Source: Candidatus Omnitrophota bacterium (GTDB lineage Bacteria; Omnitrophota; Gorgyraeia; JABMRG01). Taken from it: a DNA stretch of 64,000 nt. The stretch's first letter is position 1; every line of letters begins with the position of its first letter. A program made the position numbers and the translations under genes. Below the pieces are notes generated by a model that saw nothing but the letters and a program-made list of their open reading frames with translations, did not search any database and had not been told where the DNA came from. The stretch spans positions 1,574 through 65,573 of the forward strand of contig JBHPDT010000002.1 of the NCBI GenBank assembly GCA_042577545.1, given 5' to 3'. Shown here piece by piece: positions 27,557 to 37,501 of the stretch.

Positions 27557-30500
27557 TCAGGCCGCAGCAGAAATAGCCTGATATGCCTTGCGAAGCTCTG
27601 CATGCTCAGCTAGTGGCAATCGCGACTCAACAGTTTGCGTTACTGCTACTGCAGCTCCTTCTTCCGGCAGATCTAGGTACTCAACAAGCCATGGGGCGTT
27701 GGTTTTCATAGTATCGAGCAATCCGTTAAAGTCGTTATCAAGACAGGCATTTTTAACTTTCTCTAATAATTCTTTTACTTCTCTATTGCGTCGCATATCA
27801 GCAACAAGCCTAGATAATCCCTTTGCATCATCATAAACCTGAAGATACCGCCTTCTATATCTTGTATAAGTTGTGTGTCGACCAAAGTAATATAACATCT
27901 GAAGATATGCCTTAATCGCTTTATCACTATGACGAGAGTCATATCTGTGCTCAATTATATTTCTTGCAGTATGAAAATGAATTCTCAAAATATCTCTTTC
28001 GCTGTATTGCTCTGAGAGAATCCTAACACCAGCATATTCAATAGATTCAATCAGAAAAGCTCCCCAGCCGCTTTGGTCAAGATATTCACGTATTGTAACC
28101 ATGGACTGTATCATTTGTTGAGTCAAAGCCGTTTCTTCAGTCTGACCCAATTTTTCAGGTGTCTTAACTATGAACAATAAATCAAAATCATGATCTGGCT
28201 CTAACAGGCACCAGCCGTCCTCCTCAAAAAGATATCTGCTGCTGCCAACAATCTGTGGTCTTATATCAAAATTTCCAGTAGACGCCATTTCAGTCATGTA
28301 CAATCTAACAATATCGGAAAGTAGTTTCTCAAACAGTGTAATATTTATCTTGCCATCCTTGATCAACGCCTCAGGATCTACCTCAATACTGTTAAAATCC
28401 AATCCAGCTGATGAGGCCTTGGGAGCTGCTGCAGCTTCATCTGGCAAGCCCAGTCCCTGCACAAGCCATGGGGCGTTAATTTTCATTTGTCGCAAAAGAC
28501 TATCATAATGCGAATCATCTAAAGACGAATTAAGAACACGCCCAGAAAGTTGTTTGATGTATGGATCGCGTCTCATCTTATGCGCAAGTTCCCACATTTG
28601 CGAAGGTTTGCCCCATGCATGAAAAAACTTCTTTCTATAGTCTTCATATTTTTTTCTCTGCTCTGTTGTGCCAAAATAGTACAATAACTGAATATAATTT
28701 TTTACAATCTTTATGATGTTCTTATCTGTGGCATCTAATTCTAAATTATTATAACACTTAAGAAAGTCTTGGATTGCAACTAGGTGAAATACTAAAACAT
28801 CCTTCTCACTAAATCGATCACCCATTATGTTAGCAAACTCTATAAAAGGAGTAAAATAAGCTTCCCATTCAGGTTGGCTAAAATAACCATCTATTGCCGC
28901 GGATAAGTCGACCCAAATTTGACTTAAATCCACACGCTTAGAATTTTTTACTACAAAAAATATCTCAATGTCATGCTTTGGCTCTAATAAGCACCAGCCA
29001 TCATACTCAAATAAATATCTACTACTACCTACAACCTTGACACTTACCTCGGCTCCACTCTTTGGAATCTCTTTCTTTACATATAGCATAGCTATATCAG
29101 ATAAGAGCTTCTCAAACAAAGCAATATTTATCTTCCCATCCTTGATCAATTCTTTGGGCTCTACCTCAATACTGCTAAAATCCAATCCGGCTGATGAGGG
29201 TTTTGATATCGACTTTCGATACGCGTCAAGCCACGCATAAACAGCACTTGGGTGGCCGGAGACAAAGGACTCTGTTAAACCACTTGGGTCAGATAATACC
29301 TCAGGTAGTATCGGAAACGCCTCTTCACCTTTATGATTAAGGCAGATACCGCCTGCCTTGGCTATGAAATAGTGAGCGCCTGCGTCAACTGCCTTTTGGC
29401 CACCAAAGACTAGGAGATGTGGAAATTTAAGACTAGAAAAGGTTCCACTTGCTGCGACACGCGCTCCATCAAACCATGTTGATTGCATATCCTCACCAAC
29501 ATTATCCATATTAATATAAGAAGCAAGTTCTTCTCGCCAATTAGGCTGTATCCATGGCCAGCCTCTATCTCTTGAGTCTTTTCTGCGAACAGTCTCAAGC
29601 GCAATACGAGCAGATTTTAGATCATCAATAGAAGCAACCTGTAAAGCCATACCATTAAGCGTTGTTGCTTCATCAAAAAGCATGGCCTCAAAAAGGGAGC
29701 CGGGCATGTCTTCGATTTTCGGGGCCCCTTCTATGTCATATTCTGGAGAATATCCAATCGTCATAACTGGCACGCCCTTATAATACAGGGCAAATCCTAT
29801 CATCCAGATGCGGCTCCATTCCGTACCATATCCTACATCTTGTCCAAGGCTTTTAAACTGATCTGATCCATCAATAGGATCCAATACTGTAGTCCAGGCG
29901 GAGACAGAAAAATTTTCGTTTTGTTCTCCTACAGCTAATGCCAAGCTCGGATCACCGATCTTTTCCTCAAACACAAGCCGTGTGCGCTTGATATGCTCCA
30001 TGAAAATAGGAAGAAGATTTGCTTGGGAATAGAGATCTCCCTTTGTCACAGGAGATCCATCAAGCTTCTCATCAGCTTCTATCATTTCAGCGTGGTTCTC
30101 ACGCAGATGTTTACCAACCTCAATTATTTTACCGCGAACAGCTTCTTTGATCTCGCGAAGCTCAGGTTCCACAATTTCACCCGACCGCAAACCTTCCCAG
30201 ATAATATTTTTGCATGGCTGATTCGCAAGCCACTTTGGTTCTGCACTATCAGCTCTTCCAGCTGATGAGGCCTTTTCAGCTTCTCTATCTTCTGCTGGAA
30301 GATTTAGCCCCTTCAGGAGCCATGGGGCGTTGGTTTTCATGATGTCAAGTAACCCGTTATAATCGTTATCAGCATCAGCACTTAAAACTCTCCTTAATAA
30401 TTCTGCTGCCTCTTTATTGCGCCGTAAATCAGCAACAAGTTTAGATAGCTCACTTGCATCATGATGGTTTCTCAGATAACGACCCTTGTATTCTGTATAA

Positions 30501-37501: not shown

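What the first reader, a model, noticed from the sequence alone, without database searches (positions are those of the whole stretch)
27557..37501. 9.9-kb single ORF encoding a mosaic of MTase, radical SAM, IMPase/CysQ-like, four NTase-like modules and an 18-unit helical repeat array
Seen in sequence: one uninterrupted 3314-codon frame with an N-terminal hydrophobic signal/anchor. Recognised motifs:
- Class I SAM-MTase motifs.
- Radical SAM motifs (CNLNCRSC, GDGEPLL).
- Inositol-monophosphatase/CysQ family motifs (DPIDGS, WFDGARVAASG).
- Four ~260-aa paralogous modules with a GS...DHDFDLLF pattern that fits a Pol-beta-like nucleotidyltransferase fold.
- A 31-aa helical tandem array.
I do not recall any single polypeptide with this combination, and a radical SAM domain inside an apparently exported protein is unexpected. 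This is the strongest candidate for an undescribed system in the window. Giant mosaic proteins are a hallmark of some uncultivated lineages, but that says nothing about this one's function.
Basis: partly seen in the sequence, partly recalled or inferred. Interest (0 to 1): 0.9.

Follow-up and report, generated by a model that had tools for sequence, protein, structure and literature searches.

The report
Cassette-built exported mosaic protein of Omnitrophota
A real 3,314-residue gene of an uncultivated Omnitrophota bacterium encodes a signal-peptide-bearing string of enzyme and DNA-binding-like domains separated by one short repeated motif, giving the first concrete candidate cut points for this phylum's puzzling long proteins.

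Summary
ORF 27557..37501 (-) is one uninterrupted 3314-codon frame with its own consensus promoter, native codon usage and an N-terminal signal peptide. It matches NCBI MFC1806826.1 (Candidatus Omnitrophota bacterium).

Profile searches support the class I methyltransferase, a divergent radical SAM core, an IMPase/CysQ-superfamily phosphatase, four paralogous ~255-aa modules and an 18 x 31-aa tandem array.

The NTase reading of the modules is not supported. A confident model has no PDB fold match, and only six other proteins in 1.84 billion representatives carry the domain.

New findings:
- Seven K[AP]SSAG motifs sit exactly at the cassette boundaries.
- Relatives show the same punctuation, either with K.SS[SA]G or, in another lineage, with [HRK]FAE. 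A neighbouring 5075-aa gene also uses RFAE.
- The same chromosomal slot downstream of rpoD holds 339-, 1681- or 3314-aa versions built from shared, re-ordered cassettes.
- The modelled array superposes best on TALE-like BurrH and mTERF, which are DNA-binding solenoids, not on HEAT repeats.

Best reading (about 40%): a Sec-exported cassette polyprotein processed at the junctions.

Long mosaic Omnitrophota proteins are already described, so this is a new variant of a known kind. Interest 0.66.

The parts
37565..37593 (-). Sigma-70-type promoter-like site, TTGACA-17-TATAAT (12/12), about 64 nt upstream of the ATG
   Evidence: This is a consensus match only.
27557..37501 (-). Whole ORF, 3314 codons plus stop. 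Matches NCBI MFC1806826.1, which is annotated from Met5 (3310 aa).
37421..37501 (-). Signal peptide, aa 1-27: basic n-region, 9-10-residue h-region, c-region ending NQSAG
   Evidence: Read from the sequence; no SignalP-type tool was available.
37358..37396 (-). Post-signal leader box TLRPP (aa 36-40) followed by a degenerate junction AKSVQG (aa 43-48). The box [AT][LF]R[PAV][PLKR] recurs after the signal peptide in all relatives.
36872..37357 (-). N domain, aa 49-210, no detectable relatives
36854..36871 (-). Junction 1, KSSSAG (aa 211-216)
36182..36853 (-). Class I SAM-dependent methyltransferase cassette, aa 217-440. It is 46% identical to P0005 and about 40% identical to P0002. P0008 aligns at 39% over MTase plus module.
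35411..36181 (-). Module 1, aa 441-697. The junction before it has decayed to TKALLSR, and the GS motif reads VSS.
35393..35410 (-). Junction 2, KASSAG (aa 698-703)
34961..35392 (-). Basic linker, aa 704-847 (29 K+R against 14 D+E), with degenerate repeat-like units leading into the array
33293..34960 (-). Array of 18 x 31 aa (93 nt), aa 848-1403. Predicted two helices per unit; modelled as an mTERF/TALE-like superhelix.
32399..33292 (-). Post-array region, aa 1404-1701, no detectable relatives
32381..32398 (-). Junction 3, KPSSAG (aa 1702-1707). It is followed by LDFSSIEVDVD, the first 11 residues of a module.
31019..32380 (-). Divergent radical SAM cassette, aa 1708-2161 (CNLNCRSC at 1756, GDGEPLL at 1807). 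Only about the first 130 residues of the core match profiles.
31001..31018 (-). Junction 4, KPSSAG (aa 2162-2167). Together with junction 3 it forms a 17-codon direct repeat (46/51 nt identical) flanking the radical SAM cassette.
30275..31000 (-). Module 2, aa 2168-2409
30257..30274 (-). Junction 5, KASSAG (aa 2410-2415)
29204..30256 (-). IMPase/CysQ-superfamily phosphatase cassette, aa 2416-2766 (FEEKIG 2511, DPIDGS 2541, VDAGAHYFIAKAGG 2705). 53% identical to the P0005 cassette.
29186..29203 (-). Junction 6, KPSSAG (aa 2767-2772)
28421..29185 (-). Module 3, aa 2773-3027
28403..28420 (-). Junction 7, KASSAG (aa 3028-3033)
27635..28402 (-). Module 4, aa 3034-3289. This is the copy that was modelled: pLDDT 86, pTM 0.83.
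27560..27634 (-). C-terminal tail, aa 3290-3314 (...LRKAYQAISAAA). Comparable tails are found in P0005 (...RLLKAISSSA) and P0004 (...RLLQAIASKA).
27227..27250 (-). Terminator-like hairpin plus T-run, about 300 nt after the stop codon
   Evidence: This is a consensus match only.

Best explanation
The gene encodes a Sec-exported, cassette-built 'beads-on-a-string' protein. It belongs to a very small Omnitrophota family.

**Layout**
- Signal peptide, then a conserved [AT][LF]R[PAV][PLKR] box, then independently folding cassettes, then a short C-terminal tail.
- The cassettes are: an unknown N domain; MTase plus orphan module; an mTERF/TALE-like 18-repeat array with its own tail; radical SAM; module; IMPase-like phosphatase; module; module.
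- The cassettes are separated by one short, lineage-specific motif. Here it is K[AP]SSAG.

**Proposed mechanism**
I read the motif as a recognition and processing site. After export, a lineage-matched peptidase would cut there and release the cassettes as separate proteins. On this reading the gene is a bacterial polyprotein. It grows and shrinks by in-frame gain, loss and re-ordering of cassettes at the junctions.

**Status of each step**
- Shown: the anatomy, the punctuation at domain borders, the lineage-specific motif, cassette re-ordering, and the size polymorphism at one locus.
- Inferred: export, cleavage, and any action on another cell.
- The array most likely binds nucleic acid. This rests on a Pfam mTERF match and on the fold match of a predicted model.
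For: **1. The motif marks cassette borders far beyond chance**
- K.SSAG occurs 7 times against 0.006 expected in shuffles. It occurs nowhere else in ORFs of at least 100 aa in the 64-kb window.
- Every copy lies at a border between segments with different profile matches. The module model is disordered just before the junction, with pLDDT below 50.

**2. Relatives found by an exhaustive profile search show the same grammar**
- P0005 has 4 copies of K.SS[SA]G.
- P0003 has 7 copies of [HRK]FAE, flanking its TPR block, its module and its receiver domain.
- P0006 has 4 copies of HFAE. Shuffles give 0.004-0.05 expected.
- The first 234 aa of a different gene in the P0006 genome, 5075 aa long, carry the same leader and 3 copies of RFAE.
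- The motif is therefore specific to a genome or lineage, not to a domain.

**3. Selection acts on the protein sequence**
- Junction codons vary synonymously in P0005, P0003 and P0006.

**4. Motifs also bracket very short terminal peptides**
- In most relatives (not P0007 or P0008) a junction follows the leader box within about 10-20 residues.
- A junction or junction-like KSVAG precedes a 16-25-aa tail.
- A passive linker would not be needed in those positions.

**5. Cassettes are swappable**
- The MTase is followed by a module here, by the IMPase-like cassette in P0005, and by TKPSSGG plus module in P0008.
- P0005 equals P0004 plus about 1340 aa inserted between leader and module.
- The radical SAM cassette is flanked by a 17-codon direct repeat.

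**6. One chromosomal slot holds versions of three sizes**
- The order is HD-GYP, PMT/TPR, CvpA, NIF3, DnaG, RpoD, then the mosaic gene. GlnA follows directly in L003; the P0005 contigs end at the gene.
- This slot holds versions of 339, 1681 and 3314 aa, while RpoD stays 76-84% identical.

**7. Export is likely**
- All members have signal-peptide-like N-termini. This protein has no internal TM segment.

**8. The array looks like a nucleic-acid binder**
- Pfam mTERF: 34.8 bits against a cut-off of 23.1.

**9. Literature context**
- Post-translational cleavage of long Omnitrophota proteins has been proposed, but without known cut points.
Against: - No peptidase domain was found in the ORF or among the window ORFs scanned against Pfam. 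There is no proteomic or N-terminal evidence of cleavage.
- The two motif types, K.SSAG and [HRK]FAE, share no obvious chemistry. Three junctions here have Pro after Lys.
- Within this one gene the junction codons are unusually uniform. TCA fills 13 of 14 Ser codons (P about 1e-7), and codon identity is 79% in junctions against 59% in the rest of the modules (P 0.002). This could reflect gene conversion or a DNA-level role rather than protein recognition.
- A [4Fe-4S] radical SAM enzyme and SAM-dependent enzymes make little sense in a periplasm reached through Sec. There is no twin-arginine motif.
- The family has only about 8 members, most of them from one set of JGI samples and the rest single NCBI and GOS records. 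Conservation statistics therefore rest on few independent lineages.
- The array model is confident in only one of five AF2 models (88.5 against 55-62).
Confidence: 0.4

Rival explanations
1. The protein is an uncleaved multi-domain scaffold. It works as one 360-kDa exported or surface-attached polypeptide. The junction motif is only a conserved flexible linker, inherited each time a cassette plus linker was duplicated or recombined.
For: - No protease was found.
- Junction codons within this gene are near-identical, as expected after recent duplication or gene conversion.
- The radical SAM cassette is flanked by a 17-codon direct repeat.
- Omnitrophota long proteins are commonly discussed as single membrane-associated polypeptides.
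Against: - The motif also bounds cassettes that are unrelated to one another.
- It recurs in a different giant gene of the same genome.
- In another lineage it is replaced as a set by a different motif.
- It brackets short leader and tail peptides.
- It is kept at the protein level despite synonymous change.
- A generic linker would be expected to drift.
Confidence: 0.3
2. The junction is a DNA-level recombination site. The conserved junction sequence would exist to allow in-frame cassette exchange by homologous or site-specific recombination, in the way that conserved pre-toxin motifs allow toxin-tip swapping in polymorphic toxins. The adjacent IS110-family recombinase might contribute.
For: - Cassette order differs between relatives and the locus is size-polymorphic.
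- Codon identity is elevated at junctions in this gene, and 46/51 nt direct repeats flank the radical SAM cassette.
- An IS110 transposase lies immediately upstream.
- Contigs carrying P0005 break right after the gene in three samples.
Against: - Junction codons vary freely in P0005, P0003 and P0006.
- The core motif is only 12-18 nt long.
- Relatives have no IS110 at the locus.
- This reading is compatible with the processing model rather than exclusive of it.
Confidence: 0.12
3. The protein is a membrane-anchored cytoplasmic multi-enzyme. The N-terminal hydrophobic segment would be an uncleaved anchor, with the enzymes facing the cytoplasm, where SAM, reductant and Fe-S assembly are available.
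For: - Cofactor logic for the radical SAM, MTase and phosphatase cassettes (inference).
- The 2026 preprint argues that many Omnitrophota long proteins keep their regulatory and metabolic domains on the cytoplasmic face.
Against: - The h-region has only about 9-10 residues. Basic residues precede it and a small-residue c-region follows, which is the pattern of a cleavable Sec signal with the C-terminus outside.
- All relatives share this pattern.
Confidence: 0.1
4. The gene is an anti-phage defence or nucleotide-signalling fusion: a viperin-like radical SAM, a CD-NTase-like module, a MTase and a nucleotide phosphatase.
For: - Weak PADLOC hits: pVip E 4e-6 and the mad2 MTase E 7e-16.
- NCBIfam viperin, 23 bits.
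- P0007 fuses the module to a 2H phosphoesterase.
Against: - All radical SAM hits lie far below family cut-offs and cover only the shared cluster-binding core.
- The NTase signature is not met.
- The protein has a signal peptide.
- The gene sits in a housekeeping and nitrogen-assimilation neighbourhood, not a defence island.
Confidence: 0.04
5. The ORF is an assembly or annotation artefact: several genes fused by a collapsed stop codon or frameshift, or a chimeric join of repeated modules.
For: - The gene is known from a single short-read-type MAG contig.
- It contains a 1.6-kb tandem array of 93-nt units at 79% identity.
Against: - A 9.9-kb open frame in 40% GC DNA cannot arise by chance.
- The modules are too diverged (36-54% aa identity) to mis-assemble.
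- Composition and codon usage match the neighbouring genes.
- Relatives with the same punctuation were assembled independently in several samples.
Confidence: 0.03

Closest known systems
Long or giant multi-enzyme proteins of Omnitrophota ('Archaeovorin'-type and multi-enzyme cluster classes; West-Roberts et al. 2023 bioRxiv 10.1101/2023.11.21.568195; 2026 preprint 10.64898/2026.06.07.730766)
   Same: - Same phylum.
- Same habit of tiling MTase, HAD/phosphatase, radical SAM and helical-repeat scaffolds along one polypeptide that starts with a signal peptide or TM segment.
- Post-translational cleavage has been hypothesised for them.
   Different: - This protein is much shorter: 3.3 kaa, against tens of kaa for the giant proteins of those papers.
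- It has no C39 or S8 peptidase, SecA-like, dockerin or glycoside-hydrolase content.
- It has no internal TM helices.
- It is defined by an orphan module, a leader box and an explicit junction motif. A term search of those two papers returned none of these.
MARTX toxins and gingipain/HagA-type polyproteins (from my own knowledge)
   Same: Large exported bacterial proteins in which separate functional domains are released by cleavage at recurring inter-domain sites.
   Different: - No cysteine protease domain (CPD), RTX repeats or gingipain catalytic domain was detected.
- Cleavage is not shown here.
- The junction motif is different and specific to the lineage.
Prokaryotic tandem mTERF-like DNA binders (pTERF; NAR 2024, PMC11417379) and eukaryotic mTERF (Pfam PF02536)
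   Same: - Tandem helical repeats of about 30 aa.
- Pfam mTERF match above the cut-off.
- pTERFs were shown to bind DNA.
   Different: - pTERFs have 3-11 units, come mostly from Bacillota MAGs, are modelled with three helices per unit, and the paper describes no fusion to other domains.
- This array has 18 units, is modelled with two helices per unit, and is embedded in an exported mosaic protein.
- The Pro8/Leu11/18/25 pattern of classical mTERF motifs is not evident.
TALE-like repeat proteins (TALEs, RipTALs, Bat/BurrH, MOrTLs; PMC4787788)
   Same: - Each unit has a short helix, a loop and a long helix.
- TALEs themselves are secreted effectors.
   Different: - Units are 31 aa, not 33-35.
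- The defining motif X6-V-X6-G-X13-L-X4-6 is not met, because Gly14 is missing.
- The loop position equivalent to the base-specifying residue is an invariant Ser. The neighbouring position varies little: Q in 12 of 18 units.
Polymorphic toxin systems with conserved pre-toxin junctions, such as VENN in CdiA or PxxxxDPxGL in Rhs (from my own knowledge)
   Same: A short conserved motif marks the point at which variable cassettes are exchanged.
   Different: - Here there are many junctions in series, not one.
- The cargo is ordinary enzyme folds, not toxin/immunity pairs.
- No immunity gene lies downstream.

Membership tests
Class I SAM-dependent methyltransferase | Profile match above curated threshold | tested here: met
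   aa 217-440: Methyltransf_11 scores 31.4 bits (cut-off 21.2), Methyltransf_25 30.4 (27), Methyltransf_23 29.2 (27).
Radical SAM superfamily | CxxxCxxC cluster motif plus a GGE-type SAM motif | tested here: met
   CNLNCRSC at aa 1756 and GDGEPLL at aa 1807. That these motifs are diagnostic is my own knowledge.
Radical SAM superfamily | Profile match above curated threshold | tested here: inconclusive
   PF13353 Fer4_12 scores 34.2 bits (cut-off 22), which is met. PF04055 Radical_SAM scores 13 bits (cut-off 29.5), which is not met. All NCBIfam subfamily hits (twitch, MoaA, viperin, QueE) lie far below their cut-offs and cover only about 130 residues.
IMPase/FBPase/CysQ (Li-sensitive phosphatase) superfamily | Profile match, plus the metal-binding EE, DPxDG[ST] and WD-type motifs | tested here: met
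   FEEKIG at 2511, DPIDGS at 2541 and VDAGAHYFIAKAGG at 2705. Inositol_P scores 26.7 bits against a cut-off of 27 here, and 32.7 in the 53%-identical P0005 cassette. The best PDB sequence hit is a 3'(2'),5'-bisphosphate nucleotidase, E 0.0016. The subfamily and substrate are not resolved.
   The spacing is 17 residues (my count on the alignment). The carboxylate pair is not conserved: P0004 and P0005 have FDVH, P0008 has FDPC. The Ser is Ala in P0006, and the Gly is Val in module 1.
   [not shown]
mTERF family (PF02536) | Profile match above the gathering score | tested here: met
   34.8 bits against 23.1, E 1.1e-8, best stretch aa 1254-1411. Caveat: repeat queries inflate scores, and a PDB sequence search also hits 31-aa designed alphaRep HEAT-like repeats at E 1.7e-5.
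mTERF family (PF02536) | Left-handed superhelical repeat fold like MTERF1/3/4 | tested here: inconclusive
   [not shown]
TALE-like repeat proteins | Repeat motif X6-V-X6-G-X13-L-X4-6, 33-35 aa, with a polymorphic base-specifying residue 13 (PMC4787788) | tested here: not met
   [not shown]
MARTX-type autoprocessing toxins | Internal cysteine protease domain and RTX-type repeats | tested here: not met
   No such Pfam or NCBIfam matches anywhere in the ORF.
Omnitrophota long mosaic proteins (descriptive class from the literature) | Omnitrophota origin; many unrelated enzyme Pfams tiled on one polypeptide; signal peptide or TM segment | tested here: met
   NCBI labels the identical protein as Candidatus Omnitrophota bacterium. 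For domains and signal peptide. The class is described. I did not establish the length cut-off of those catalogues.
Polyprotein (processed at junctions) | Demonstrated cleavage products, or a cognate protease | not testable with these tools
   Only indirect evidence is available: the motif statistics and its placement.

The most novel reading that the evidence does not exclude
These genes would be true bacterial polyproteins with a lineage-specific 'punctuation code'. A dedicated peptidase would cut at K[AP]SSAG, or at [HRK]FAE in the sister lineage. This would release a changing set of enzymes and an 18-repeat TALE/mTERF-like DNA-binding effector. The Omnitrophota cell would export these and deliver them into the host or prey cell. 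That would explain how SAM- and Fe-S-dependent cassettes can sit behind a signal peptide. The same punctuation would extend to the phylum's multi-thousand-residue giants and give their long-sought cleavage points.
Probability: 0.2. Interest if true: 0.88.

Novelty: new variant of a known kind. Interest (0 to 1): 0.66.

Why it matters
**An open question becomes testable.** It is not known whether the very long proteins of Omnitrophota act as single polypeptides or are cut into pieces. The 2023 study states that cleavage points are unknown.
- This small family offers explicit candidate cut sites that can be tested statistically.
- It includes tractable members of 339, 1681 and 3314 aa at one orthologous locus.
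- The question can therefore be addressed by metaproteomics or by heterologous expression.

**It shows how such proteins may grow.** The mechanism appears to be in-frame gain and re-ordering of cassettes at a short motif.

**Two further leads.**
- An orphan domain of about 255 aa with a confident model but no PDB fold match.
- An 18-unit tandem repeat array whose predicted shape matches TALE-like and mTERF DNA binders. Such arrays are of practical interest as programmable nucleic-acid binders.

Tried and rejected
2. **Sigma-70 region 2/3 similarity in the post-array region (aa 1404-1701).** This was my own idea from reading the sequence. BLASTP against the window's RpoD gave nothing better than E 3.3, and there is no Pfam or NCBIfam hit. 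Dropped.
4. **Membership in the TALE-like family.** Rejected on the published motif.
5. **Searches that returned nothing.**
   - The search for homologous proteins with the 10-module alignment A2.
   - The search for homologous proteins with the N-terminus of the 5075-aa L006 gene. I could therefore not count RFAE motifs along that giant.
6. **Collection scans.**
   - The GTDB representative genome scan found no relative.
   - The metagenome scan found only the GOS fragment that encodes P0008.
7. **Unavailable or empty look-ups.**
   - The AFDB Foldseek library was not available.
   - Exact look-up of the giant protein's own contig found nothing.
8. **dN/dS between P0005 and P0010.** Uninformative: only 2 nt differences.
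9. **Junctions conserved purely as DNA.** Tested and judged insufficient on its own.
10. **Remnant of the LMWPc gene between rpoD and the IS110 element.** Looked for; none seen.

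
Full report
**1. The observation**

The minus strand carries one open frame from 37501 down to 27557: 3314 codons and no internal stop.
- A 12/12 match to TTGACA-17-TATAAT lies 64 nt upstream. A hairpin plus T-run lies about 300 nt downstream. Both are consensus matches only.
- GC content, GC skew and codon usage fit the neighbours. 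The RSCU correlation is 0.80, against 0.68-0.89 for the long neighbouring genes.
- The identical protein is NCBI MFC1806826.1, labelled 'methyltransferase domain-containing protein [Candidatus Omnitrophota bacterium]', on a 70-kb contig.
- The surroundings are ordinary chromosome, all on the same strand.
  - Upstream: dnaG, rpoD and an IS110-family transposase.
  - Downstream: an ECF sigma factor, a Gcw_chp protein, amtB, the PII gene, glnA and GOGAT.

**2. Anatomy**

The only hydrophobic stretch is N-terminal. It has basic residues, a 9-10-residue core and then NQSAG, which is the look of a Sec signal peptide. There are no internal TM helices.

The motif K[AP/S]SSAG occurs seven times. Residue-shuffled sequences give 0.006 expected, and the motif is absent from every other ORF of at least 100 aa in the window. 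These seven motifs cut the protein into eight pieces:

| Piece | Residues | Evidence |
|---|---|---|
| N domain | aa 49-210 | No relatives |
| Class I MTase | aa 217-440 | Three Pfam MTase models above cut-off |
| Module 1 | aa 441-697 | Joined directly to the MTase; paralogue of modules 2-4 |
| Basic linker plus array | aa 704-1403 | 18 x 31-aa units; period 93 nt at 79% DNA identity |
| Post-array region | aa 1404-1701 | About 300 aa, no relatives |
| Radical SAM | aa 1708-2161 | CNLNCRSC and GDGEPLL present. Fer4_12 above cut-off, PF04055 below it. Only the first ~130 residues of the core match |
| Module 2 | aa 2168-2409 | Paralogue |
| IMPase/CysQ-superfamily phosphatase | aa 2416-2766 | EE, DPIDGS and VDAGA..AGG motifs. 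Inositol_P 26.7 bits against 27 here, 32.7 in the 53%-identical cassette of P0005. Best PDB sequence hit is a 3'(2'),5'-bisphosphate nucleotidase, E 0.0016 |
| Module 3 | aa 2773-3027 | Paralogue |
| Module 4 plus tail | aa 3034-3314 | 25-aa tail ending AISAAA |

**3. The modules are not demonstrably NTases**

- The four copies are 36-54% identical to each other.
- A profile of them was searched exhaustively against 1.84 billion representative proteins. It found only six other proteins.
- An AlphaFold2 model built from ten family members is confident (pLDDT 86, pTM 0.83). It shows an alpha/beta half and a helical-bundle half.
- The G[SA]x[KR]Y...D.D pattern has a 17-residue spacer, and its acidic pair is not conserved across the family.
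- I therefore treat the module as an orphan domain of unknown activity.

**4. The array**

- Pfam calls it mTERF: 34.8 bits against a cut-off of 23.1. A PDB sequence search also hits designed 31-aa alphaRep (HEAT-like) repeats at E 1.7e-5.
- I modelled seven units, using six in-window shifted copies as the alignment. The best model has pLDDT 88.5, but the other four reach only 55-62. It shows a short and a long helix per unit.
- The published TALE-like motif X6VX6GX13LX4-6 (PMC4787788) is not met. The position equivalent to the base-specifying residue is an invariant Ser. The array therefore looks like a TALE/mTERF-type binder but is not a TALE-like family member.
- Tandem prokaryotic mTERF-like DNA binders (pTERF) were reported in 2024 (PMC11417379). 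They are the nearest described relatives of this piece.

**5. Relatives and the junction grammar**

*Shared architecture.* The six relatives are P0003 to P0008. P0008 is encoded on a GOS read-pair contig (L009), which shows its full N-terminus. All of them start with a signal peptide followed by the box [AT][LF]R[PAV][PLKR].

*Motif counts.*
- P0005 (1681 aa) has four K.SS[SA]G motifs, and P0004 (339 aa) has one KASSAA.
- P0003 has seven [HRK]FAE motifs, and P0006 has four HFAE. They lie exactly around recognisable domains: the TPR block, the module and the receiver domain.
- Shuffles give 0.004-0.05 expected.
- A different gene in the P0006 genome, 5075 aa long, has the same leader and three RFAE motifs in the 234 residues I could read.

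*Character of the motif.*
- It belongs to a lineage, not to a domain.
- Its codons vary synonymously in those genomes, so the constraint acts on the protein.
- In most relatives a motif follows the leader box within 10-20 residues. A motif, or the junction-like KSVAG, precedes a tail of 16-25 residues.

**6. Cassettes move**

- The MTase cassette (46% identical to P0005's; P0008 aligns at 39% over MTase plus module) is followed by three different things:
  - a module here;
  - the phosphatase cassette in P0005;
  - TKPSSGG plus module in P0008.
- P0005 equals P0004 plus about 1340 residues inserted between leader and module. Leader and module are 57% identical between the two.
- In this gene the radical SAM cassette is flanked by a 17-codon direct repeat, KPSSAGLDFSSIEVDVD. 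It is 46/51 nt identical, and all five differences are synonymous.
- P0004, P0005/P0010 and this gene occupy the same slot. The gene order is HD-GYP, PMT/TPR, cvpA, NIF3, dnaG, rpoD, then the mosaic gene. GlnA follows directly in L003; the P0005/P0010 contigs end at the gene. RpoD is 76-84% identical across these genomes.
- Relatives have an LMWPc gene between rpoD and the mosaic gene. This genome has an IS110 transposase there instead.

**7. Interpretation**

The general phenomenon is already described: long Omnitrophota proteins that tile MTase, HAD, radical SAM and helical scaffolds behind a signal peptide or TM segment. [quoted passage not shown] A term search of those papers found no mention of junction motifs, linkers or polyproteins.

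My best reading, at about 40%, is an exported cassette polyprotein processed at the junctions.

Main alternatives:
- An uncleaved scaffold whose junctions are inherited linkers (about 30%).
- A DNA-level recombination role for the junctions (about 12%). It is supported here by the unusually uniform junction codons: TCA in 13 of 14 Ser codons (P about 1e-7), and 79% against 59% synonymous codon identity (P 0.002).
- A cytoplasm-facing anchored enzyme (about 10%).

A defence-system reading and an assembly artefact are both unlikely.

Weak points of the best reading:
- No protease was found.
- There is no direct evidence of cleavage.
- The two motif types share no chemistry.
- How a Sec-exported Fe-S enzyme could function is unsolved, unless it reaches another cell's cytoplasm.

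**8. Verdict**

The ORF is real and its mosaic nature is confirmed. The claim of uniqueness is softened by recent Omnitrophota literature.

What is new:
- the punctuation motif and its lineage-specific variants;
- the leader box;
- the orphan module;
- the size-polymorphic locus;
- the TALE/mTERF-like array.

I rate it a new variant of a known kind, interest 0.66.

Noticed in passing
window 37992-39044 (-), and 39045-39654: An IS110-family (DEDD) transposase lies between rpoD and the mosaic gene, where related genomes carry a low-molecular-weight phosphatase (LMWPc) gene. Upstream of it are 43-nt direct repeats (39245-39417) and a 19-nt inverted repeat (39131-39149 / 39224-39242). These could belong to the element's non-coding end.
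   Followed up: partly
window 26422-26934 (-): A 170-aa ECF-type sigma-70 factor (TIGR02937, 43.8 bits against a cut-off of 42.9) lies directly downstream of the mosaic gene. In locus L003 glnA follows the mosaic gene instead.
   Followed up: partly
L001 (gene ends 14855 of 14867), L002 (11142 of 11165), L010 (15046 of 15049): All three contigs that carry P0005/P0010 come from different samples, and all end 3-23 nt after its stop codon. The assemblies break at the same point, which suggests strain variation or a repeat just downstream.
   Followed up: no
L006 21960-22661 (start of a 5075-aa gene on Ga0118719_1000089): A second, much larger gene in the P0006 genome has Glu/Leu/Phe/Val dehydrogenase Pfam hits. 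It starts with the same signal peptide plus DTLRAP box and has three RFAE motifs in its first 234 residues. I could not retrieve the rest.
   Followed up: partly
window 32348-32398 and 30968-31018 (-): The radical SAM cassette is flanked by a 17-codon direct repeat encoding KPSSAGLDFSSIEVDVD. It is 46/51 nt identical and all differences are synonymous, as if the cassette had been inserted into the start of a module.
   Followed up: partly
window 1-64000: Every plausible gene across the 64 kb is on the minus strand, and GC skew is negative in every 2-kb bin.
   Followed up: no
window 2020-25312: A dense nitrogen-assimilation neighbourhood: glutamate dehydrogenase, two GltD-like subunits, a GOGAT large subunit, two glutamine synthetases (one 80% identical to the glnA next to P0004), PII and AmtB. 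P0006 also sits next to a glnA.
   Followed up: partly
window 46936-51137 (-): Two tandem paralogous 7TM-GAF-HD(HD-GYP-type) genes of about 700 aa each. This arrangement is conserved upstream of the mosaic-gene slot in L001, L003 and L010.
   Followed up: no
window 27331-27359: A perfect 14-nt tandem duplication (GGGTTCAGGGGACA x 2.1) in the 3' intergenic region, close to a second promoter-like site (27318..27291, 11/12).
   Followed up: no
P0007 (L008 224-1849): One family member is a signal peptide plus module plus a 2H-phosphoesterase-like domain (PF08975, 23.1 bits against a cut-off of 21; HLTIS and HVTFAY motifs). This is the only hint that the module might be linked to nucleotide or RNA chemistry.
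   Followed up: partly
window 61227-62738 (-): A secretin (GspD/PilQ-type) gene lies 24 kb from the mosaic gene. No other secretion components were examined.
   Followed up: no
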